Below are positions 45,292 to 64,000 of a stretch of 64,000 nucleotides of DNA, one piece after another (the stretch's first letter is position 1; each line of letters opens with the position of its first letter). The DNA is taken from positions 411,990,001 through 412,054,000 of the forward strand of contig OZ024741.1 in the NCBI GenBank assembly GCA_964016885.1, given 5' to 3'. This stretch comes from Eledone cirrhosa (lineage: Eukaryota). The notes beneath the pieces were generated by a model that had not been told where the DNA came from, made no database searches, and saw nothing but the letters and a program-made list of their open reading frames with translations. The position numbers and the translations under genes are program-made.

Positions 45292-45667
45292 CATCATCAT
45301 CATTGTCATCATTTTACGTCCGCTTTTCACTGCTTGCAAGGGTGGGACAGGAACAGATTCTGGCTCCATCTCTACAGCTGGATGCCCTTCCGAACACCAA
45401 CCTCATCTACAGTGTGGGCTGGGTGCTTTTTTTCCGTGGCGCCTACACGCCCACTTTACAGTGTGGGCTGGGTGGCACCTCCACGACCACTTTGCAGTGG
45501 AATATAGAGACCCCAGTCCCTATCATCTCATTTCTACAGCTGAGTAAACTGGAGCAATGTGAAATAAAGTGTCTTGCTCAAGGAAACAACACATCACCCA
45601 GTCTGAGAATTGAACTCAACCTTTCGATTGCAAGGCCAATGCTCTAACCACTAAGCCATGTGCCTCC
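45292..45667 (-). mobile_element. Apparently complete tRNA-derived SINE with bipartite RTE-related body and tail
   Basis: Head with A box TGGCTTAGTGG (45658-45648) and B box GAGTTCAATTC (45617-45607), then TCCTTGAGCAAGACACTT. An RTE-5'-like segment (45500-45370) follows. The 3' end CCTGTCCCACCCTTGCAAGCAGTGAAAAGCGGACGTAAAATGATGA closely matches the RTE end at 56525-56570, then a (GAT)n tail. It could be two abutting elements rather than one. Confidence 0.75.
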
Positions 45668-46040: not shown

Positions 46041-46117
46041 AACCAAGTTGAATTTTTTGTGATTGCAATTAAATCAATATGCCTGTTTAATGGAATAATT
46101 GTTTTTACTATTGTCAG

Positions 46118-46242
46118 AAGGCCAGCAGTTTGAAAGGAAGGGAAGTCAATTAAATTGACCCAGTATATTACTGGTATTTTATTTTATCGACCATGTAAGG
46201 ATGCAAAGCAAAGTTAATCTTGGTGGGATTTGAACTCAGACC

Positions 46243-46244
<2 letters not shown>
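46118..46244 (-). mobile_element. tRNA-derived SINE fragment (B box plus conserved central domain)
   Basis: The minus strand reads TCTGAGTTCAAATCCCACCAAGATTAACTTTGCTTTGCATCCTTACATGGTCGATAAAATAAAAATACCAGT. The B box is evident. Family recognition is from memory of invertebrate SINE bodies. Confidence 0.6.
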
Positions 46245-46290
<46 letters not shown>

Positions 46291-46310
46291 GTAATAATAA
46301 TAATAATAAT
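46245..46310. repeat. (AAT)n microsatellite, tail or target of the Tx1 element
   Basis: About 22 triplets with one AGT interruption. Confidence 0.95.
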
Positions 46311-46611
46311 GATTTCTTTATTGGCCACAAGGGCTGACATCAAGAAAAACATTACAGACGGCACAGGACGGTACGATGTGGGTTTTGTGCATGTAAATAT
46401 TTTTATTATTTATATAAGAAAAGAAGAAAAAAAAAAAGGACATAGAAACATATATATATATATAAACAATAAAAATGAAAATTGAAACAATGAAAAATTC
46501 CCCAATAGGGGGAAACCTCCGAGGGTTACTCGTGGCAAAAACCACACAAAAGACCACGGCCACCCTGACCACCAGGGCAAGCGCCCTCTCTCAATTTTTC
46601 CATCTCTCAAA

Positions 46612-49600
46612 CTACAGGCGTATATTCAGAGCAGTCCCGTTCACTCGGACCATTCTCGCTACATTCACCCACCTTTCAACAAACTTGCTAGAGGGCAGCA
46701 CTTGCCTCTCCACCCTGATTTTCCTCTTCAAGTGAAACTTGCCACCCGGCAGATGAAAACCGCCTGTCCTTCCTCCTCGAAGGAAGACGGCGAGACCATC
46801 TGCACAATGGACTCAGTCGACAACCGGATCAGTCCTACACGCGACAGCAACTGTTCGACATAGCTCCACAAGTTAGCAATGCTCGGACACTGAACGAGTG
46901 CGTGCACGACGGTTTTGTAGCTCTGCGCGCATCTCGGACAGGCTCGGCTGACGGCACTTCCGTGCCTATAGAGCTTATCTCAAACTGGCAGCGCTCCCTG
47001 GTAGCACTGCCAGGCCAGGGATTTTTGGAAGTTATCCATAGGCCTCGGGCTGAAAGTTCTCCGGAAGAAAGCAAACAGCTGATCTTCAACGCCCAGGATC
47101 TCTCCGAGAATGTTGTCGCTCTTCCCCTCCACTAGTCCTCTATAGAACGCCGAGGTGGATGTTCCACCGATACTGGTGCCCAGCTGGGAGAGGGCAGTGA
47201 GCGCCTGGAGACATTCCAGTTTCCAAGCGCTATCCCTCGGTCTTTTTCTGACCCAGGTCTGCAGCTCTGTCAAGGAGACGAGCTGTGGGAAAATGTGCCT
47301 GGCGAACGGCGACCACACCTGTTCACCATCAAGGAAGCACCAGCGATGTTGCAGCCTCAGCGCATGTTTGCGCATCATCAGCCATGGCATGCCCAGTCCT
47401 CCACGCAATGGGTGTTGACAGCAGATGGATCGTCTGACCATGGGAGCGCATCCCTTCCACAAAAAGCGGAAGAGGAGGCGCTCCATTTTGGTGAGAGTTG
47501 GGCTGGAGCAAGGGACGACGGTGAGGCGGTAGCAGATGACGGATGTGATGTACGCATTCCCCATCTCCGCCCGGCCTTTCAGGGACAACTTCCTCTCGGC
47601 CCATTTCTGGATGAGGGAGGCCACCCTGCTTGTCACCTCGTTCCAGTTTTTCTCCATCTGGAAGTCCGGTCCGAACCAGACCCCGAGCAATTTAACCGGT
47701 CCGTCCGTCCGAAGCCCCACGATGCTGTTGGACAGCATGGACTTGCCTCTCCAGGTGCCGAGCCCACCGACTTTTCCTGGTTTATCTTTGCTCCTGTCAC
47801 CTCTTCGTATTCCTTGAGAGCGGTGCCAAGCATCTGGACGTGTCTGGTGCTCGACACCACCACGGTGACGTCGTCAGCGTAAGCCGACTCAGATTTCCAA
47901 CATCCTAGTTCGCGTGGGACGCCCCTCATCGCCCCAGTTTGTGCAGTAACGGCTCGAGAGCCAATACGTACAAGAGGGACGAGAGGGGACAAACCCGGCG
48001 GACTGAGCGCATGATGCTGAACGGCTGCGACAGGTGACCATTCACCCTCACAACTGAGCAGATGTCGCTGTACATTGCTGCGATCCAGCCCCTGAAAACG
48101 GGCCCCGAAACCGGCTGCCTCGAGGACCGCCGCCAGGTCCCGATGGTCGACCCTATCGAATGCTTTGGATTGATCCAAGTTGATCAGGACTCCACCCTTG
48201 CCAGGTTCCTTAACCACTCTCTCTATGATGTATCGCATGAGGTGGAGGTTGTCGTGTATGGATCTGTCCGGGATGGCGCATGTCTGCGCCTCTCCGACCA
48301 GACCCTTGACGACAAGCGCCAACCTCGTTGCCAACACCTTGGCCAAAATCTTGAACTCTGCGTTTAGCAGGGTTATGGGCCTGAAGTTATCAATAACATC
48401 CTCCTTGTTCGGGTCTTTTCTCAGTAGTGCCACTGCTCCCCGGCTCACAAAACTGGGAATGCTCCCGTTCTGCTGCCAGTTGCAGTAGACGTCTGCCAAG
48501 AGGTCACCGAACAAGTCTGGCATAAATGCATAAAGCTTGTAGGGCAGACCATCCAAACCTGGCGATTTACCCCTCGTGCAGTTAGCTATCGCTTCCCGTA
48601 TTTCACCAGCTGTAATTGGCTTTTCGCAACACTGTGCTGCGGTCGTCGAGAGCCGAGGCAGTCCGTCGAGGTATGCACTGAAGTCCATGCCCCGATCCGG
48701 GCCGCCGCTGCTCCCGAACAGTTCAGCAAAGTGCTGCTGAAAAGCTTCCCACATATGCTCTGGTTCAAGCAACACGCACCTGTTTTGGTCAGATAAAGAC
48801 CGAATTGTGGCTTTGTTGCCACGTCGCGCTTCTGCCACCCAGGCCCATTGGACGGCTTTTGTCCCCTCGTGTTTCAGAGCACGCGCTCTAGCTCTGACAA
48901 CGCAGCCTTCGTGTTTTGCGTTGAAGAATTGGTCGAGTGCCAATCTCGCCGCAAGCACGTCGGTTGCGATGCCTGTCCTAAACGCCTCTTCTAGCTTTCT
49001 GACTAGCTCTCCCTCTACTCTATTTTCCTCTATCACTACTCCTTTACTAAACCTAATCAACTCTACTTTAATTGCCCTTTTCAGGGCGAACCATCACCTG
49101 TTGTTGACGATCGCTCCCGTCAACGCCCGCTTAACTAATACGCTAATCCGGTCTCTGTAGGCTTTGCGCGCCGGGAAAGACGCGTTCAGCTTCCAGTAAC
49201 CAGGCCCTTGTCTATGAAGTCTGTCTATGTCGATCTCACAGATCACAAATTTGTGGTCTGTGTAGTCGACTATTTTAAATTGTGGACAACTTATATTAGC
49301 CTTATCTAGTTCTCTGCAGAATACCCTATCGAGATACGATCTGGATGACCCGATGCGGTTTGTCCATGTCCACATTGGCACATTCGGGTGATCCAGTCGA
49401 TACCTGTCAGACAGTTCAAAACGTCTGAGCAGGTTGGTGAGGCTCTTGCACCCTCCTCCCCTATCCACTAGCCCCACACGATCCCAGCGTGCATCCAAGA
49501 TACCGTTCCAGTCGCCCACTAACACTAAAGAGCGGGACGTTCCAAGAAAGGTCTCTAGACGTCTGAAGAAATCTGGCCGTCCTGCCCCTGTTGGGGCGTA

Positions 49601-49933
49601 GACGGCTACTAGCCTGAAAGCATTGCCTTCGCTGCTGGTCACGTCCAGCACCACCGACTTACCTTCTGGGTCTAGGAAGATGGCCCGTATCGCGAGATCC
49701 AAGCCTCTCCGAAAAAGGACGACGATCCCTCCCCCAGATCCTGGACGGCTGGTAGATGCGTAAACATCGTAGCCGCCGAAGATCGGTGCGAAGGCTTGTG
49801 CTTCAGAGATTCTGGTTTCACTGATGGCCACCACCTCTATGTTTAGTGACCTGAGGTCGTTGAGCAGGTGACCCTGCTTCCAAGATGACCCCAGGCCACG
49901 TGCATTTATACTGCCTATTCTGAGTACGGCCAT
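46612..49933 (-). pseudogene. Tx1-clade ORF2 (APE endonuclease + reverse transcriptase), disrupted
   Basis: ATG at 49933 (MAVLRIGSINARG). In-frame stop at 49094-49096 and several frameshifts (track pieces 49094-49969, 47633-49060, 46980-47738). C-terminal stop at 46612-46614. Confidence 0.92.
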
Positions 49934-49965
49934 GTTGGATGAGAAACGGGGCAAGTGAGAAAGGG

Positions 49966-51726
49966 TCACTTACCTTGTTCGTGTGGTGAAGGGACAGTAG
50001 AACCGTCCCTTTCGCTGGTCATGGGTGTTTCCAAGAGGATGTCAGTGTATATCCTCTTGGTAACCGACCCTCTGAAGTCTCCAACTGCGTTGGGAAATTT
50101 TTGTTTTAAAGGTTTGTACTGTTCTATTGAGATTTCGATGATGCTTATGTTTGTCGGGAGAGTTCTTGGTGTTGGTGGGGTGTAGTAGTTTTTTTCTGTG
50201 ATGTCTGTGTGCTGCTTTATATATTGTATGAGTTCTTTTTTTGCCATGTTTATGGCTGTGTACTTTTTTTTTTTGGGGGGGGGGGGATTTTGTTGCTATT
50301 TTCTTCTTGTTGCTGTTTGGTGTGTGTGTCTTGTTGTGTTTGCGTTGTTGGTGTTTTTGGTGATGCTGGTGGTGGTGTGGTTGTTATTGTCAGTGGTGCT
50401 TGTGGTGGTGATGGTGGTGGTGTTGCTGCAAGTTTCTTTGCTGCCTTTACCCCTCTTTGTATGCCTTCTCTTTTGGAGGGTGAATCTAAGGGGCTTTTTC
50501 TTTTTTGTTTTTGTGGCAGACCGTAGTGGAGCCCTCTTCGGCAATTTTGTTGCTGGGGTAGCTACTTCAAATGTAGCTATTGGTGTTGCCGCCACTGATG
50601 ATGCTGCTTTAGTTGTCCGTGGCCTTGGTACGGGTGCTACGGACGTTGCCCTCCTACTCACCGTGGAAGGGGCTTCTTCGTTTGTTGCCTGCCTTGCTCT
50701 TGGTAGCAGCGGACCAGGTATTGGAAGGAGAGGGGCCTTCTTCGCTGTCTTCTGCGGGCAAAAGGCCCTGAGGTGACCTTTCGACCCACAGAAATAACAT
50801 TTTGGCCGTCTTCCTTCTACACTTATAGGGAGTTGGAGTCCTTCCTCGATGTCTATGATATCGGGGATAGCGTCGATACATTCCTGGTCAGTTTGTATAA
50901 GCATTTGCATGCCTATACCTGACCAGTTCTCTCTCCCTAAGGCGAAAAGTACGTCTACTGTGGCGTACTTTCTGCCTCGGGTGATGTGGGTTTTGCGTGC
51001 CCAGACGCACCCCAAGGCCTTTTGGATTTGAGCCTCCGTGGCTCTCTCCACCCGATGTGAGATTTTGCTAACGGTGCGGTAAGTCACCGTCCGTAGCTGC
51101 TGGTCCTTGAAAAAATCGGGTGGAGGTTTCAGGGAAACTCTATTTGCGCTTCTTGTCACCATGGCCCTTGCGACTGCCATCTCCTCCTCTGTGACTAACA
51201 CTGTCTCGATATTTCGAGCGACACCTGCAAAAGAAGTGGTCCCTTTTTCAGCAGCACCACTATTGCTGCCGTTACTGGTCTTACTGGTGGTGTTGAGAAC
51301 GCTATTACAGGTATCGGTGCTATTGTTGTTGTTTTCGTTGGTACAGTTGTTGGTGTTGTTGTTGTTGTTTTCGTTGATACTGTTGCTGTTGTTACTGTTA
51401 TTGTGGCTGTTGTTATTATTGTTGTTTTTGTTGATACTGTTCCTACTATTATTGTTGTTGTGGCTGTTGTTATTGTCATTGTTAATGTCGTTCTCGACCT
51501 TACCGCTGTTATTTTTGTTATTGTCGTTCTCGACTTTACCGCTGTTGTTTTTGTTGTTGCTGTTGTTGTTGTTGCTGTTGTTGTTGTTGTTGTTTGTGTT
51601 AGAAATATTTGTTAATTTTAAATCTGTTACAATCTTCTTTTCCTTTGTAATATTTTCATTTATATTTACCTCCGCTGGAACGCTGTGTTGTCTGACAGCG
51701 CTCTCTCTCTTTCTTGTGTTATCCAT
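49966..51726 (-). pseudogene. Tx1-clade ORF1 (gag-like; zinc knuckle CYFCGSKGHLRAFC; Asn-rich N-terminus), broken near the C/A homopolymer at ~50265-50300
   Basis: Track ORFs 50296-51741 and 49966-50247. CX2CX4HX4C motif. First ATG at 51726. Confidence 0.85.
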
Positions 51727-51964
51727 ATTGAAATTTTTCAAAAAAAATATTTTTACACAAATACGAATACGGCACCCCGTAAAGGGGTGCCGTATTATTT
51801 ACTAGTGAACCCCTGTATGAGGTGGGTCACTTCTTCTAAACTTTTATCAAATTTAAAACTTGAATAAAAGGTTTAGAACGGTTGAAAACGAGGTAAAACG
51901 TTGAAAAAAAACTGGAGGCGATAAGAAGCGTGGCTTCTCCAACAATAATAATAATAATAATAAT

Positions 51965-52076
51965 GATTTCTTTATTGGCCACAAGGGCTGACATCAAGAA
52001 AAACATTACAGACGGCACAGGACGGTACGATGTGGGTTTTGTGCGTGTAAATATTTTTATTATTTATATAAGAAAA
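51965..52076 (-). mobile_element. 112-bp copy of the same Tx1 element's 3' end, bracketed by (AAT)n
   Basis: Identical to 46311-46422 except one base (46391 A vs 52045 G). Confidence 0.93.
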
Positions 52077-52145
52077 TAATAATAATAATATACCGAGTGA
52101 GGGATATACCGAGTGAGGGATATACCGACACAAGAGTGGAGTAAT

Positions 52146-52388
52146 ATCACAAAAGAAAATATCAAATTTGTTTTAAATAAATCTGAGAAATGGAAGTGAT
52201 CCGGCCATGACAAAGTACCAAACTTTTGGTTTCACCATCTTAGAGCTAAACATAGTTTGATGGCAAAAACTCTCTCAAAAATCATGATTTTCCTGAGTGG
52301 AGATGCCAGCCTGGGTCATAAAGGGAATAATATTCCTTTTACCCGCAAAATGAAGGAACCGATGAATCTCAGAATTACAGACCAATAA
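52146..52388 (+). pseudogene. Decayed LINE RT fragment, probably R4/Dong clade
   Basis: Hand translation ITKENIKFVLNKSEKWK*SGHDKVPNFWFHHL..MPAWVIKGIIFLLP..NYRPI with frameshifts. The WKxPGxDxxxNFW pattern is typical of R4-clade RTs. Confidence 0.6.
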
Positions 52389-53254: not shown

Positions 53255-56200
53255 AACAGACAAGGGGTGGACGGAGGCTCTGTAAGCCGTAGTGTAGGCA
53301 ACCCGTCTACGAGAGCTACCACTCCGAATAAATTGGTGCGGGGTAGAGAAGTCCCCTAATACCAGTAAGACAACTTCCCTAGTGTTGGTGGCACGAATAA
53401 AAGCACCCAGTCCATGCTGTAAGGTGGTGCTGGTGTTAGGAAGGGCATCCAACCAGAATGAAATTTGCAACAACTGCGTAAACAGCAATAACACTAACCA
53501 TGTTAGGGCTGCGCATGGTAGTGGGGTGGCTGGTGCGGCCATGTGCGAGAATCCCCCAACCGTCATCAAACAATCGCACAACAGGAAAAAGAACGAGATG
53601 TCGCATCTCGGAGTTTCCACACTTAATGTTGGCACTCTAACAGATAGATCTTGTGAGATAGCGGAGATGCTGGAGAGAAGGCATGTGGATGTGTGCTGCA
53701 TGCAAGAGGTGAGATGGAGAGGTGCCTCTGCAAGACTAATCGCAGGCAAACATCGGAGTTATAAGCTTTTCTGGGTGGGTAATGATGATTGGTTAGGTGG
53801 GGTGGGTATATTACTGGCTGAGAGGTGGATCAGTAAGACAATAGAGGTAGTTAGAGTTAGTGTTAGAATAATTAAGCTTAGGTTAGTTGTAGACAAGAGA
53901 TTACTGACAATCATCTCTACTTATGCTCTCCAGGTAGGCCAAGGAAAAGAAGAGAAAGACTGCTTTTACGAGCAACTTTTACAAACAGCCTCAATGACAG
54001 AGATCAGAGACATCGTTATGCTAGCAGGGGACTTCAATGGACATGTTGGACAGCTCCAGGATGGATACACTGGGGTACATGGTGGGCACGGTTACGGCTC
54101 AAGAAATGAAGAAGGAGTGAGACTTCTTGAATTTTGTGATGCAAATGCACTAACCATTTACAACACTAACTTCCAGAAGCCTACCAACCACCTAATAACC
54201 TACAAATCAGGCGAGCACATAAGCCAGATTGACTTCTTGCTAGTTAGACAGCGAGACAGACAGATGGTGTCAAATATTAAGGCATAGCCTGGGGAAGAAT
54301 GTACCCCACATCATAGGTTAGTCGTTAGTGACATCTCAGTAAGCATGAGAAAGAATGAGACATACAGGAAGGTCTGGGAGCTAAAAGACCTTTTATTAAA
54401 ATATAAATTTAGCAAAGCCCTTCAAGATGTGTATGACGAAAAAGAAGACGATTTAGAGTTGTATGACATAGATAATAACTGGAATTTCTTACGTGACAAC
54501 TTACTGGAGGCTACTGAAGAAACTTATGGTTGGGGCAGAGCTTCAACCAGATAGAGAGTGACCTGGTGGTGGAACAGCATGGTAGATAGGGCCATTAGAG
54601 ACAAAAGACTGGCATGGAAGGCTTGGAAAAAGGGTGGGAGTAGGGAAGGATACACAGCCGCTAGAAGAGAAGCTAGACGTCAGGTGTACTTAGCACGCAG
54701 GGAGGCTGAGAGTAGGAGGTTTGCCAATGTTCTGCGATGGGAAAATCAGAAACATGCGGTGTTCCGCATTGCAAGGCAGTGTGTCAATGCAAATCAGGAT
54801 GTTGTTGGAGATAAGTATGTCCGGAATGATCGGAAAAAGGAGGCCTGGAAATGTCACTATGAGAGACTGATGAATGGGACAGAGAGAAATTATCCCCAAT
54901 AGACCCAACAGAGGGACCAGCTATTGAGATTGATGAATATAGGGTACAAGAGGCAATTAAAGAAATGAAGAATGATAAGGTTGCTGGTCCGTCGGGGATA
55001 GTTGCTGTGATGCTGAAGGCATCAGGTGAAGTAGGCATTAAACTGGTTGCATGCATCATCAATCAAGTTATATATGGTGGTGTCATACCCAAAGACTGGT
55101 GCAGCAGTATTCTCATAAATTGCTACAAAGGTAAAGGGGATGCTCTGGAGAGGAGCACTTATATGGGCATAAAGCTGATGGATCAGGTTATGAAACTGAT
55201 TAGAGAAAGGGTCAAATTAGATGAGATGCAGTTTGGTTTTGTGCCTGGGAAAAGTACAACAGTGAGGCAACTACAAGAGAAGTTCTTAGAGAAGAATAAG
55301 CCATTATACTTAGCTTTTGTTGACCTAGAGAAGGCCTTTGAGGGTACCCCGATCTGTCATCTGGTGGTCCCTAAAGAACTAGGTGTAGAGGAATGGCTTG
55401 TGAGGGCAGTGCAAGCTATGTACAGGGGTGCTGTCAGTAAAGTGAGAGAGGTATGAAGTTTAGTGGGGAATTTCAGATACAAGTAGGTGTACATCAAGGT
55501 TCGGTTCTCAGCCCGCTCTTGTTCATTATAGTCTTCCAAGCCATAACAGAGGAGTTTAAGACTGGCTGTCCATGGGAACTTCTCTATGCTGACGATCTGG
55601 TTCTTATAGCAGAATCAGTAGAGGAGCTAGAGAATAAATTCTGGCTATGGAAACAGCAGTTGGAATTAAGAGGACTGAGAGTGAACCTAACTAAGGCAAA
55701 AGCGTTGATAAGTAGAAGAGAGGACAATACTCCGATTCCATCAAGGAAATGGCCATGTTCGAAATGCAGAAAAGGAACTGGCATAAATTCCATAAAATGT
55801 ACGCAAAGCAGATCTTGGGTACACAAGAGATGTAGTGGGATAGCAGGCAAACTAACAGGTAGGGAAAACTACGTATGCAGTAGATGTACAGGGAAAGTTG
55901 GCAGTAGTAATCACAGTGATAGACACATTTTTCCAATGCAGGTGGGTTCTATAGAAGTGCTTGATAGCTTCCGGTACCTAGGTGATCAGATTAGCATGGG
56001 AGAGGGTTGTTCCGAGGCCATAGTATCTAGAATAAGGACGGGTTGGAAGAAGTTTAGGGAGCTGCTTCCTTTGTTGACAAAGAAGGGTTTCTCCCTGCAT
56101 ACGAAAGGACGGTTATATGATGCCTGTGTGAGATACGCAATGCTGCATGGTAGTGAGACATGGGCAGCAACTGCAGAAGATATGCCACGGCTGGAGAGAC

Positions 56201-56596
56201 ATGAAGCAAGTATGCTCCGTTGGATGTGCAATGTCAATGTGCGTGGACGACCAAGCATAGACGAGTTGAGAAAGAAACTGGGTATAAGAGGGATAAGTTG
56301 TGGTGTGCAGGAGAGAAGGCTGAGATGGTATGTACATGTGATGCGCATGGAGGATGACCGGTGGGTAAAGAAGTGCCAAGAAATCCCAGTAGAAGGAAGA
56401 CGCAGTAGAGGTAGACCACGAAAACCATGGGTGGAGGTGGTGAGAACAGACCTCAGATCGCTGAAACCCACCGAGGAGATGACGAAGGACCGTGACAAAT
56501 GGAGAGATGCTGTGCTGAATAGGACCTGTCCAACCCTTGCAAGAAGGGAAAAGCGACGTAAAATTATGATGTTGATGATGATGATGATGATGATAA
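53255..56596 (+). mobile_element. RTE-clade LINE, near full length, defective
   Basis: 5' region with GGCAACCCGTCTA and AGGAAGGGCATCC motifs, a single EN-RT ORF and a (GAT)n tail at ~56567-56596. The 5' boundary is approximate. Confidence 0.92.
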
Positions 56597-56619
56597 CAAT
56601 TATGCAACTTCTCTACTAA
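53541..56619 (+). pseudogene. RTE APE endonuclease + reverse transcriptase with an internal PHD-like Cys/His finger; multiple stops and frameshifts
   Basis: TLNVGTL, CMQEVRW, GDFNGHVG, SQIDF, FVDLEKAF, GVHQGSVLSPLLF, LLYADD, FRYLG, GSETW, RLRWY.HV, RGRPRK. Stops at 54285 and 54552. Confidence 0.92.
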
Positions 56620-59254: not shown

Positions 59255-59674
59255 ATATTCTAAATAGCAACTCACTATAATTCTATATAGAGTAACATTT
59301 ATTAGTACCCCTTTCCCCTAATCATATGCATTCATGCTTATTTTTTACATTTTAATGGTTTAGCTTCCTTAGGTTTATGCGTTAATGACTAAAGGCAACA
59401 AGGTACACAACCACCCGTAATTGCATGAGTGAATATATATCTATGTAGGATATGGAAATATATTTATGTGTGTGTATATATATATTTATGTATGTGTATA
59501 TATGTATATATATATATGTATGTGTGTATGTGTCTATATATATATGTGTATTTGTGTGTGTATATGTGAGTATATGTATGTGTATGAGTTTATTATTATT
59601 ATTATTACTATTATTATTACTTTTTTTTTTTTTTTTCTAATTCAATGATGTTCCAGAACAATATAAAAGAGATA

Positions 59675-61604
59675 TGTTTCTTTTATTTGCCACCAGGGCA
59701 TCAAAAGTGGGACAAGTACAATGGGGGAGTTTACAAAACAAGGCGTCCTCAATAAGGAGGAGGCAATAACAATATATAAAAATAAAATAAAATATAACAA
59801 AAAATAAAATTTATAACAAAGTCCTCAATAGAGAGGAGGCGCCTTGGGGGGTCGCCCCCCCCACCCCCCCGAAAAAAAGTGTGCAACCCTTTTCCTCAGG
59901 AGCACAGAGAAGGGGTGCTCCCTTGGTCTTTCATCTTCCTCACCTATAGTCTGATGTAGAGTGAAGGCCCATTCACACGGGCCATTCTCGCCACTTTCAC
60001 CCATCTTTCATAAAAACGGCTGGGGTGCAGCACCTCTCTCCATCCTGATCCTTCTTCCGAAATGATATCGGAAGAAATGGACCAGTTGTTGGCCAGAGAG
60101 AAAGGTGTCTGACCTCAGTCCTTTCAGACGCGTCCACCATACAACCTCTTTCGCCATGGCTATTACGCACAGAAACACCGCCTCTTCTTCGTTTTTGAAG
60201 AGGGGAGGCGGCTTGATCGTTACAATAGACTCGGTGGTCAACCGGATCGGTCCCACCCTTGACAGCAGTTGTTCGACATAGCCCCACAGATCGGCAATGC
60301 CCGAGCAGTGTACCAATGCGTGTGCAACGGTTTCCTCGTCGCACACGCATCTGGGACAGATCTTTTTCGATGGGTCCCTACCCGGGCGCCCGTGTCTGTA
60401 GAGCCTTTCTCGAACGGGCAGAGCCCTTCTGTAGCATTGCCAGGCCAGGGACCTCTGGAAGTTATCCATGGGTCCCGGGCTGAATGTCCTACCGAACAGG
60501 TTGGCCAGTTCGTCTTCCTCCACGCCTAGGGCTTCTCCGAGGGCGTCGTCGCACCTGCTAACCACCAGCCCTCTATAGAATGACGAGGTGGATTCTCCAC
60601 TGACAGCCGGGTCCGCCTGCTAGAGAGCCGTGAGCGCCTGGGCACACTCGGTGTGCCAGGCGCCCAGTTTTCTCGGTCTTTGCTTGACCCAGGATTGCAG
60701 CTCGGTGAGTGAGACGAGTCTGCGAAAGGCTCGCCTCACAAACGGGGCCCACACCGGTTGACCGGAGAGGAATACCTGAAGGTGCCGTAGCCTTAATGCG
60801 TGTTTACGTATCATTAGCCACGGCATCCCCAGCCCTCCTTTCGAAGGGTGTTGACAGCAGATGGATCTCCTCACCATAGGAGCCCGCTTCTTCCAAAGGA
60901 ATTGGAAGAGTGCGCGCTCCATTTTGGCGAGCGTTTCCCTTGGGCAAGGCACAACGGTCAGGCGGTAGTAGATGACGGACGCTATATAAGTGTTCGCCAC
61001 CTCCGCCCGACCTTTCAGGGACAGTTTGCACTCGGCCCACTTCTGGATCAGTGCAAACACCCTGTTCGTTACCTCACCCCAGTTCTTCTCCACCTGGAGG
61101 ACTGGTCCGAACCAGACCCCGAGCAACTTCACCGGGCCCTCCGTCCAGCGCCCGACGCCGCCATCGGAGGGCATCGATCTGCCCCTCCACGTGCCGAGTT
61201 GCAGACCGATCGACTTGTCCCGGTTCAGCTTAGCTCCTGTAAATCTTTCGTACTCCTCCAGTAAGGTGCCAATCGCCCCGATTTCCGAGGCCGTCGACAC
61301 CATTACTGTTACGTCATCGGCGTAGGCTGACACCGCTTTCCGCAATCCCGGTTCCAACGGGATGCCCTGCAACAACTCCAACTTCCGCAGCAGTGGCTCT
61401 AGAGTCATTACATACAGAAGGGAGGAGAGAGGGCACCCCTGTCGGATGGACCGCGCGATTTCGAACGGCTCCGAGAGGTAGCCGTTCACCTTGACCCTAG
61501 AGCAGATGCGGCTGCTGTGCATGGCATTGATCCAGCCCCTGAAAACGGGTCCGAAGCCTGCCGCCGCTAGCACCGCATCCAGGTAACCATGGTCGACCCT
61601 ATCG
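59675..61604 (-). mobile_element. 5'-truncated Tx1-clade LINE (second subfamily) with a 15-bp target site duplication
   Basis: RT from FDRVDH through RQGCPLS, YADDV, GGLGMP and the C-terminal CPRC..H..C. One in-frame stop (60620-60622) and a frameshift near 60035. AATATAAAAGAGATA occurs at 59660-59674 and 61605-61619. Confidence 0.93.
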
Positions 61605-61606
61605 AA

Positions 61607-64000
61607 TATAAAAGAGATAATTGGCAATTTAGGTTCTGGAACAAAAAGATCATTGGCAATAAGGGCAGGGGCCCCAGGTTATCACAGCCTGGGCCCGCTC
61701 GTCATCGTGCCATTGTAATAGAGCCAAACAAGGCATTTAGTCTTGGCTGCTGGAACGTACGGACGCTGCTTGACAGGGATTCCTTGGGGCGTCCTGAACG
61801 AAGGACCACTCTTGTTGCAAAGGAGCTTCGACGTTACGATCTTGACATCGTGGCTTTATCTGAGACGAGGTTAGCTGGAGATGGTCATCTTACAGAATTT
61901 TGTGGAGAATATACATTCTTCTGGAAAGGAAGAGATGAAGGAACCAGAAGAGAGGCTGGGGTAGGATTTGCTGTTAAGACTGTGCTTGTGAACAAATTAG
62001 AAGAATTCCCAGTAGGGATTAGTGAGCGTCTTATGTCCATGAGAGTTCCGCTGGACAAGGGAAGATATGCTACCCTGGTGAGTGTGTATGCTGCAACTAT
62101 GAATTCTGTCGATGAGGAAAAGGTGTCCTTTTACCATGCCTTGAAAGGTGTTTTAAGAAATATCCCTCAGGCAGACAAAGTCATCGTGCTTGGTGACTTT
62201 AATGCTAGAGTGGGTAGGGATTTTAACATATGGAATGTAATCGCAAGGCATGGGGTGGGAAAGTGTAACAGCAATGGTATGCTCCTGCTGCAGATGTGTG
62301 AGGAGTTGGATCTGTGTGTTACCAACACCATGTTCCAACAAAAGAACAAATTCAAGACCACATGGATGCATCCTGCATCTAAGGAATGGCATATTTTGGA
62401 CTACGTCCTAGTCAGGATGCGTGACAGACAGGATATGCAGTGTGTTCGTGTTCTTCGTGGAGCTGAGTGCTGGATGGACCACCGCCTGGTACGCGCAAAA
62501 GTGAAACTAATCACTAAACGTAAAATCCGGACTCCTGGTGTTGCCCTGCCCAAAAGATTGAATGCTGCTCGTCTTAAGGATAAAAATGTGAAGAGGACAT
62601 TGGAAGAAGAGATGCAGGCTGCAGATCTTGGTGAGGATTGGCCGACCCTTAAAAAGTCGGTTTATGATGTAGGCAGGCGTGTTCTGGGATTGGCGCAGAG
62701 GAAACATCAGGACTGGTTTGATGAGAATGATGTACATATAGAAGACTTGTTGGCTGATAAGAGGCGTGCTCTGTCACGCTACTTGACGGCAAAACCACAG
62801 GAGAGGAATACGTTGCATGGGGAACTCAGGGATGTAAAATCACGTGTTAGGCGGAGTCTTTCTCAGATGAAGGATCAGTGGTGGAGTGAGAAGGCTGGTG
62901 AGATACAAACTGCGTCTGATTCCAATAGCACAAAGCTGTTGTACAGTCTCTTGCGTGAGGTTTATGGACCGTCTTCTTCTCTGGTGACACCGCTTCGCAG
63001 CAGGGATGGCAAAGAACTTCTTCGTGACTCACAAGGAATTCTACGAAGGTGGCGAGAGCACTTTGATGATCTTTTGAATCAGCCGTCTGTCGTCAGTGAA
63101 GATTTCCTCAATCTCATTCCAGAAAGTCCTGTGAAAGTAGCTCTCGCAGAACCTCCGACGCTTGTGGAGGTTGCAGTGGCTATTTCGAAGCTGAACAGTG
63201 GAAGATCTCCAGGTATGGATGGCATACATGCTGAGCTCCTACAATATGGTGGTGAGAGACTCCTGCAACATCTTCACTCTTTGTTTGGCAGGATATGGGC
63301 TAATGAATCCGTACCTGAGGACTGGAGAGATGCAGTAATGGTGGTCTTGTACAAGGGAAAGGGTAACAGGAACGATTGTGGGAACTACAGAGGTATATCA
63401 TTGCTTTCTGTCGTAGGGAAAGTTTTATGTAGGGTGCTTCTGGACCGTCTGCTGACACACATTGCAGATTGTGTTCTTCCTGAAAGTCAATCTGGTTTTA
63501 GTGCTGGACGCGGCACTACTGATATGATCTTCTCAGCTAGACAGCTCCAGGAGAAGTGCATGGAACAAGGCTTGGATCTGTATCAGGTTTTTGTCGATAT
63601 GACAAAAGCTTTCGATACTGTTAACAGAGATGCATTATGGAAGGTTCTCCAGAAACTTGGTTGCCCTGATAAGTTCCTTGCTTTAGTTAGGTCTTTCCAT
63701 GACGACATGAAGGCTTGGGTTAATGTCGGGGGTAACATGTCGGAGCCTATCTCAGTAAAAAATGGAGTGAAACAGGGGGATATTCCAGCACCAACCCTGT
63801 TTGCCATATACTTTGCAATGATTTTCTGTATTGCATTCAGGAATTGCGAGCATGGTGTTTACATCCGATATCGAACCTCAGGCAGCATATTTAACATCAT
63901 GCGCTTTGCTGCGAAGACAAAAGTATTTACATCAATCATAAGAGACCTCTTGTATGCAGATGATTGCGATCTTGTAGCGCACACAGAGAGTGATATGCAG
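61607..64000 (+). CDS. RTE-clade (BovB-like) LINE ORF, APE endonuclease + reverse transcriptase, uninterrupted and running off the window
   Basis: Hand translation of ~798 codons finds no stop: GCWNVRTL, ALSETR, GVGFA, GDFNARVG, TWMHP, DHRLV, DWFDEND, SPGMDG, NYRGISLL, KAFDTV, GVKQGD, YADD. Absent from the ORF track because no stop falls in the window. The start codon is not identified. Confidence 0.93.

What the first reader, a model, noticed from the sequence alone, without database searches (positions are those of the whole stretch)
46245..52092. Tx1 LINE with an LTR-like layout: its own 112-bp 3' end is repeated upstream of its 5' end, all joined by (ATT)n
Seen in element orientation: (ATT)n - 112-bp 3' stub - (ATT)7 - full element ending in the same 112 bp - (ATT)22, with one mismatch between the copies. 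The stub is element-derived, since the second Tx1 copy ends with a related GCCCTGGTGGCAAATAAAAGAAA. Established: many Tx1-clade elements are target-specific, some for microsatellites, and HeT-A uses the 3' end of the upstream copy as promoter. Possible explanations are (a) repeated targeting of (ATT)n including its own tail, (b) transcription starting in an upstream copy's 3' end so the stub co-mobilises, or (c) template jumping in a single insertion.
Basis: partly seen in the sequence, partly recalled or inferred. Interest (0 to 1): 0.72.

Follow-up and report, generated by a model that had tools for sequence, protein, structure and literature searches.

The report
False LTR from stacked ATT-targeting LINEs
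This jumping gene looks as if it had matching ends like a retrovirus, but its family sits in ATT repeats and piles up there, so the extra front end is likely a short sister copy that landed in the same repeat, and most copies of the family lack it.

Summary
The layout is real: (ATT)5, a 112-bp stub, (ATT)7, a decayed 5.6-kb L1/Tx1-type LINE ending in the same 112 bp (111/112), then (ATT)22.

It is not a family trait. All 30 positionally sampled full-length copies start right after (ATT)n, but only 2 have their own family's tail there. Ten have a sister family's tail, matching abundance (7811:1673), and 5 have a SINE. One pattern finds only 15 self-junctions genome-wide, of varied length, and the upstream tail is usually no closer to the element's own end than to other copies. 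A HeT-A-like co-mobilised stub is rejected; repeated (ATT)n targeting is the best reading.

Two results keep a one-event or copy-from-neighbour origin open (about 30%). Short stubs lean towards matching their own element (post hoc, p about 0.02). Stacked neighbours in the sister family share pair-private mutations (11 of 39 pairs against 1.3 expected, replicated).

The scan already reported ATT-targeting Tx1 stacks many times on other DNA of this genome.

The parts
52110..52388 (.). Fragment of an older, unrelated repeat, broken off at the locus
   Evidence: paralogues at 73-83% run on without any ATT array
52088..52128 (.). 16-bp tandem duplication (2.6 copies) at the junction of flank and ATT
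52075..52089 (-). (ATT)5 upstream of the stub; last two T shared with the stub
51965..52076 (-). 112-bp stub: 3' end of a family-A copy (AATAAA signal, ends GAAATC)
   Evidence: 111/112 to 46311-46422
51944..51964 (-). (ATT)7 linker
51727..51943 (-). 5' UTR of the full-length element, starting at the family's shared G; predicted hairpins
   Evidence: z = -3.5 for 51800-51945
49970..51726 (-). ORF1 region (Asn-rich, CCHC knuckle); frame disturbed by deletions; 3' boundary approximate
   Evidence: a 707-aa relative hits zf-CCHC at E 0.006, below the curated cut-off
46612..49933 (-). ORF2: APE endonuclease, reverse transcriptase, zf-RVT region; broken by stops, frameshifts and an 87-bp deletion
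   Evidence: an intact 1139-aa relative has all three domains
46311..46422 (-). The element's own last 112 bp
46244..46310 (-). Tail/target array (ATT)6 ACT (ATT)15
46094..46243 (-). 5'-truncated tRNA-like SINE with (ATT)2 tail; third member of the stack; its 3' end resembles the LINE's
   Evidence: the same SINE borders many other copies. SINE identity rests on box motifs from my own knowledge and on earlier scan notes

Best explanation
The element belongs to an L1/Tx1-type LINE family whose full-length copies sit directly after (ATT)n repeats, and the 112-bp piece in front is likely a separate, 5'-truncated copy of the same family that landed in the same repeat, so the LTR-like look is likely a by-product of stacking. 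Inferred mechanism: the APE endonuclease nicks the AAT strand, reverse transcription starts at the RNA's 3' end, and ATT is left on both sides, giving a fresh target. SINE, full-length copy and stub would thus be three insertions in one tract, in unknown order. Transcription likely starts at the element's own first G. The near-identity is what 3-10% of family 3' ends give anyway, possibly helped by sequence exchange between neighbours. Shown: layout, ATT flanking, partner frequencies. Inferred: nicking, start site, independence of the two insertions.
For: ATT lies directly upstream of 30/30 5' ends found with a 5'-only query and of 30/30 taken by position from 207 exact matches; rough background 24/10008. 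In the positional sample the upstream partner is a B tail in 10, an A tail in 2, a SINE in 5 and something else in 13. B:A of 10:2 fits genome counts of 7811:1673 (binomial p = 1). A permissive pattern finds 15 A-to-A junctions, 65 to over 1500 bp long. In 25 other pairs the upstream end differed from the element's own end by at least 3 changes in 85 nt. Mean rank of the own end among other ends was 0.45 (n = 10) and 0.41 (n = 25 family-B pairs, p = 0.17). 4 of 40 other 3' ends match the stub as well as the own end does, and 1 of 30 positional ends is within one change of the own end, so about one such case among 15 junctions is expected. No short-stub excess in B-to-B junctions: 2/30 against 5/30. 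7 of 8 copies truncated at 0.5-1.35 kb also have ATT at the 5' junction. Double insertion at a preserved target is described for R1 and other non-LTR elements (PMC5932611, passages).
Against: A-to-A junctions lean short: 6/15 under 200 bp against 4/30 (p = 0.06; p = 0.22 without this locus and one diverged row). Short stubs lean towards their own element: mean rank 0.28, p about 0.02 for 7 other pairs, post hoc, and one of the 7 (L323) is not a simple stub. Two family-B loci (L354, L342) repeat the same layout with near-identical stubs. At the average private rate of 1.9% per copy, about 4 differences are expected between two independent copies of one variant and 1 is seen (Poisson about 0.07, my arithmetic). 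Only 1 of 8 solo copies under 300 bp had clear ATT upstream.
Confidence: 0.6

Rival explanations
1. One event or neighbour copying. After finishing the full-length cDNA, the reverse transcriptase jumped to the 3' end of the same or a sister RNA and copied 112 more bases before joining the flank; or the stub was copied or converted from the element's own end.
For: The geometry fits: the stub lies where late cDNA would lie. Same 3' variant in stub and element, a variant I counted in about 6 of 41 own ends. Short-stub trends and the L354/L342 analogues. A 16-bp flank duplication at the junction suggests slippage-prone joining. Stacked family-B neighbours share pair-private variants: 6/25 pairs against 1.0, replicated 5/14 against 0.57, p = 2e-4. 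A template jump is proposed for TART repeats (PMC1636488, passages).
Against: Stub and own end share no private variant. Several short stubs differ in variant or subfamily from their element (L064, L068, L358). No short-stub excess in family B. Neighbour sharing was not significant in 9 family-A pairs (p = 0.31).
Confidence: 0.28
2. Remnant: two long copies once stood in tandem, possibly one duplicated from the other, and a deletion removed all but 112 bp of the first.
For: Internal deletions are common in this family. The flanking old repeat is broken at this point. L265 shows a long upstream copy cut down internally.
Against: ATT stands directly before the stub, as at ordinary truncated insertions.
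Confidence: 0.06
3. HeT-A-like system: transcription starts in the upstream 3' end, so the stub travels with the element as a functional pseudo-LTR.
For: The layout at this locus. HeT-A starts 31-93 nt inside the upstream element (PMC1636488, passages).
Against: 28/30 copies lack an own-family tail. All copies share one sharp 5' start whatever lies upstream, and 15/30 have an extra G, which in L1/SVA is ascribed to cap copying (PMC3287187, passages). No daughter copies with this stub: deletion junction and flank are unique, and the two other copies with the same 5' variant have different upstream DNA.
Confidence: 0.04
4. Assembly duplication.
For: No read or contig laid here bridged the junctions.
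Against: The copies differ at one base and have different tails and flanks; 14 other junctions of this type exist.
Confidence: 0.02

Closest known systems
Kibi (TC)n, Koshi (TTC)n and crocodilian (TTCC)n/(TTTC)n Tx1 families (PMC4494074, PMC3812793; passages)
   Same: APE-type LINE inserted in a microsatellite; meets the paper's criterion of more than 20% of flanks
   Different: The target is (ATT)n. I found no ATT-targeting Tx1 in four searches, but did not see Repbase, Kojima and Fujiwara 2004, or Fig. 3 and the supplements of PMC4494074
R1 tandems and non-LTR dimers by double insertion (PMC5932611; passages)
   Same: A preserved target lets further copies insert head to tail, with target sequence in the junction
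   Different: The target is a dispersed microsatellite shared by several families and a SINE
Dong (TAA)n elements (PMC3812793; passages)
   Same: Same microsatellite; Dong-like RT elements flank many copies on the opposite strand
   Different: Different clade and opposite orientation; the Dong label rests on motifs I recall and on earlier scan notes
HeT-A and TART (PMC1636488; passages)
   Same: 3' sequence found in front of the 5' end
   Different: There it is a rule with promoter function; here it occurs in 2 of 30 copies, with no fixed length and no matched sequence
Gene conversion between neighbouring Alus (PMC8230782; passages citing Aleshin and Zhi 2010)
   Same: Neighbours within about 10 kb share non-diagnostic mutations
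   Different: Here LINE 3' regions about 6 kb apart; conversion is not separated from copying at insertion

Membership tests
L1-group non-LTR retrotransposon | ORF2 with APE endonuclease, RT and C-terminal zinc motif | tested here: met
   nearest solved relative is human L1 ORF2p, E 3e-52, against R2 at 6e-21 (intact relative L341)
L1-group non-LTR retrotransposon | Variable 5' truncation with a fixed 3' end and tail | tested here: met
   28/30 3' ends run into ATT-type units
Tx1 clade | RT phylogeny grouping with Tx1L, Keno, Kibi, Koshi | not testable with these tools
   No named Tx1 reference was returned; the label rests on architecture and target preference
Microsatellite-specific Tx1 | Target repeat in more than 20% of flanks | tested here: met
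   30/30 and 30/30
Microsatellite-specific Tx1 | Endonuclease cuts the repeat | not testable with these tools
   Needs a nicking assay
HeT-A-like upstream-promoter element | Most full-length copies carry an upstream 3' tag of fixed length | tested here: not met
   2/30; lengths 65 to over 1500 bp
HeT-A-like upstream-promoter element | Transcription starts in the upstream 3' end | not testable with these tools
   No RNA holder listed
LTR or TART-like terminal repeats | Both repeats regenerated together, so they match within a copy | tested here: not met
   weak exception for short stubs

The most novel reading that the evidence does not exclude
Stacked ATT-targeting LINEs have a minor route that makes self-matched terminal repeats: the reverse transcriptase jumps from the finished 5' end to an RNA 3' end, or neighbours copy each other. 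This locus, L354 and L342 would be natural snapshots of a non-LTR element acquiring a proto-LTR.
Probability: 0.25. Interest if true: 0.6.

Novelty: new member of a known kind. Interest (0 to 1): 0.3.

Why it matters
As it stands, this is a caution: target-sharing LINEs can mimic LTRs, which misleads annotation and LTR-style dating. The replicated sharing of private mutations between stacked neighbours means these arrays do not evolve as independent copies. If the minority route is real, a genome with thousands of young tandem junctions would allow a direct count of how often a non-LTR enzyme makes matched terminal repeats, a step often invoked for the origin of LTRs (my own knowledge).

Tried and rejected
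Empty site from paralogues: the flanking repeat's relatives have no ATT array there, and its continuation is not downstream, so there is no pre-insertion allele.

Read support: contigs of four runs and two RAD-seq runs did not bridge the junctions; no verdict. No RNA holder listed; no evidence either way.

A sub-lineage marked by the 5' variant shared with L148: only 3 copies exist, with different upstream DNA, and L148 lacks this copy's 33-bp deletion; likely recurrent mutation.

An early short-stub signal (5/7 against 4/30, p = 0.005) shrank after one row proved to be a long copy with an internal deletion and the set was widened.

Long identical conversion tracts between neighbours were not found (p = 0.2-0.4). 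No Rfam ribozyme at the 5' end. The 3' end fold was not significant (z = -1.6). No named Tx1 reference or Atlas result was obtained, so the clade was not tested by a tree.

Rows dropped: 15 of 40 and 6 of 20 family-B loci lacked a recognisable own B end. One 5' locus (L149) was not oriented.

Full report
Observation. The window lies on contig C2 of a 3.0-Gb animal assembly. A protein hit labelled Argonauta and earlier scan notes suggest an octopod. On the minus strand: an old repeat fragment with a 16-bp duplication, (ATT)5, a 112-bp stub (51965-52076), (ATT)7, G, a 5632-bp element, (ATT)6 ACT (ATT)15, and a 5'-truncated SINE with (ATT)2. Stub and own end differ at one CpG site. The element encodes a decayed ORF1 and an APE-RT ORF2. 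An intact relative has APE, RT and zf-RVT and is closest to L1 ORF2p among solved structures. The name Tx1 was not tested by phylogeny.

Is the stub a family trait? No. A query holding stub plus 5' end found many look-alikes, but it is biased. With the 5' end alone, 30/30 loci had (ATT)n directly upstream, and by my reading 7 of the 29 others had a Tx1 tail before it, only one of the same family. An exact 29-mer found 207 5' ends. The first 30 by position all follow (ATT)n, preceded by family-B tails (10), family-A tails (2), the SINE (5) or other DNA (13). Exact 3' motifs number 7811 for B and 1673 for A, so partners come in proportion to abundance. A permissive pattern finds 15 A-to-A junctions with upstream pieces of 65 to over 1500 bp. 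It misses copies with mutated motifs, such as L014.

Does the upstream end match the element's own end? Generally not. In 25 other pairs the difference was 3 or more changes in 85 nt. Ranks of the own end among other ends averaged 0.45 in 10 A or A-like pairs and 0.41 in 25 B pairs (p = 0.17). One pair (L148) ranked first of 34. Ends as close as the window's pair make up 1/30 to 4/40 of the family, so about one such case among 15 junctions is expected. This copy has left no daughters: its deletion junction and flank are single-copy.

Mechanism. The pattern fits a microsatellite-specific LINE that leaves ATT on both sides, so each insertion renews the target. Precedents are Kibi and Koshi (PMC4494074 and PMC3812793, passages) and double-insertion dimers (PMC5932611, passages). 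Long truncated copies also have ATT at the 5' junction (7/8), so the ATT is likely target DNA and not RNA leader. Solo copies under 300 bp mostly do not (1/8), which I cannot explain. The sharp shared start, with an extra G in 15/30 copies, suggests a capped RNA from an internal promoter, by analogy with L1 and SVA (PMC3287187, passages). That is inference.

What keeps the one-event reading alive. A-to-A pieces lean short (6/15 against 4/30, p = 0.06; 0.22 after removing this locus and one diverged row). B-to-B pieces do not (2/30 against 5/30). Among pieces under 350 bp the own end ranks low: mean 0.28 in 7 other pairs, p about 0.02, post hoc, and L323 is a rearranged long copy. L354 and L342 show the same layout in family B, but in a young variant where other copies match equally well.

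Separately, stacked B neighbours share variants seen in no other of about 108 sequences: 6/25 pairs against 1.0 expected, then 5/14 against 0.57 in newly fetched loci, pooled 11/39 against 1.3. Mean distance was lower in the first set (4.3% against 4.8%, p = 0.018) but not in the second (p = 0.47). Most shared sites sit in short identical runs within pairs 2-6% apart. This resembles conversion between neighbouring Alus (PMC8230782, passages). The signal was not significant in 9 A pairs, and the window's pair shares no private variant.

Novelty. Searches returned no ATT-targeting Tx1. A recent Octopus vulgaris repeat paper lists active L1-Tx1 and Dong-R4 families, and the passages I saw do not mention targets (PMC13282606). 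Repbase, subscription papers and supplements were not seen. The scan has already described ATT-targeting stacks, the Dong partner and the SINE in this genome.

Verdict: real, mostly ordinary for this family; interest 0.3.

Noticed in passing
L309-L368 (tandem family-B pairs): Adjacent stacked copies share pair-private mutations far above chance (11 of 39 pairs against 1.3; replicated), with little drop in overall distance.
   Followed up: partly
L131 = G000:C2:411477000-411486990: 557 kb from the window lies a chimera: its 5' 3 kb is 97-99% identical to the window copy and shares its 33-bp deletion, while its 3' half is only 82% identical, like family B.
   Followed up: partly
L354 (C3:45.89 Mb) and L342 (C2:343.45 Mb): Same layout in family B: ATT, a short stub near-identical to the own 3' end, ATT, full element.
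   Followed up: partly
window 59590-61678: Second Tx1-like copy (about 72% identical, 5'-truncated). Its related 3' end is not followed by ATT in element orientation but by about 40 other bases, an A-run and (TAA)n, so it does not follow the ATT rule.
   Followed up: no
L104, L108, L115, L116, L118, L126, L127: Solo copies shorter than 300 bp mostly lack ATT at the 5' junction, unlike longer truncated copies.
   Followed up: no
L174-L197 against L201-L230: Family-B copies in front of family-A 5' ends are all long (10/10 over 1.4 kb; 18/30 in general).
   Followed up: no
L202, L207 and many tails: Opposite-strand RT elements, one with a restriction-like endonuclease end (Dong/R4-like, motif recalled), share the same ATT tracts.
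   Followed up: partly
window 46094-46160 against 46311-46340: The SINE's 3' end resembles the LINE's 3' end, as expected of a partner SINE.
   Followed up: partly
window 176-43351: Three long satellite arrays (49 bp x458, 48 bp x236, 42 bp x173), about 4 Mb from the contig end.
   Followed up: no
window 53298-56619 (+) and 61680-64000 (+): Two other decayed APE-RT LINEs; the first ends in (ATG)n, the second abuts the truncated Tx1-like copy.
   Followed up: no
window 51761-51942: The 5' UTR folds into hairpins (z = -3.5), with a further hairpin at about 51766-51796; no Rfam family near its gathering score.
   Followed up: partly
window 45604-45658: tRNA-like SINE head (Rfam tRNA 27.8 bits, below the gathering score).
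   Followed up: no
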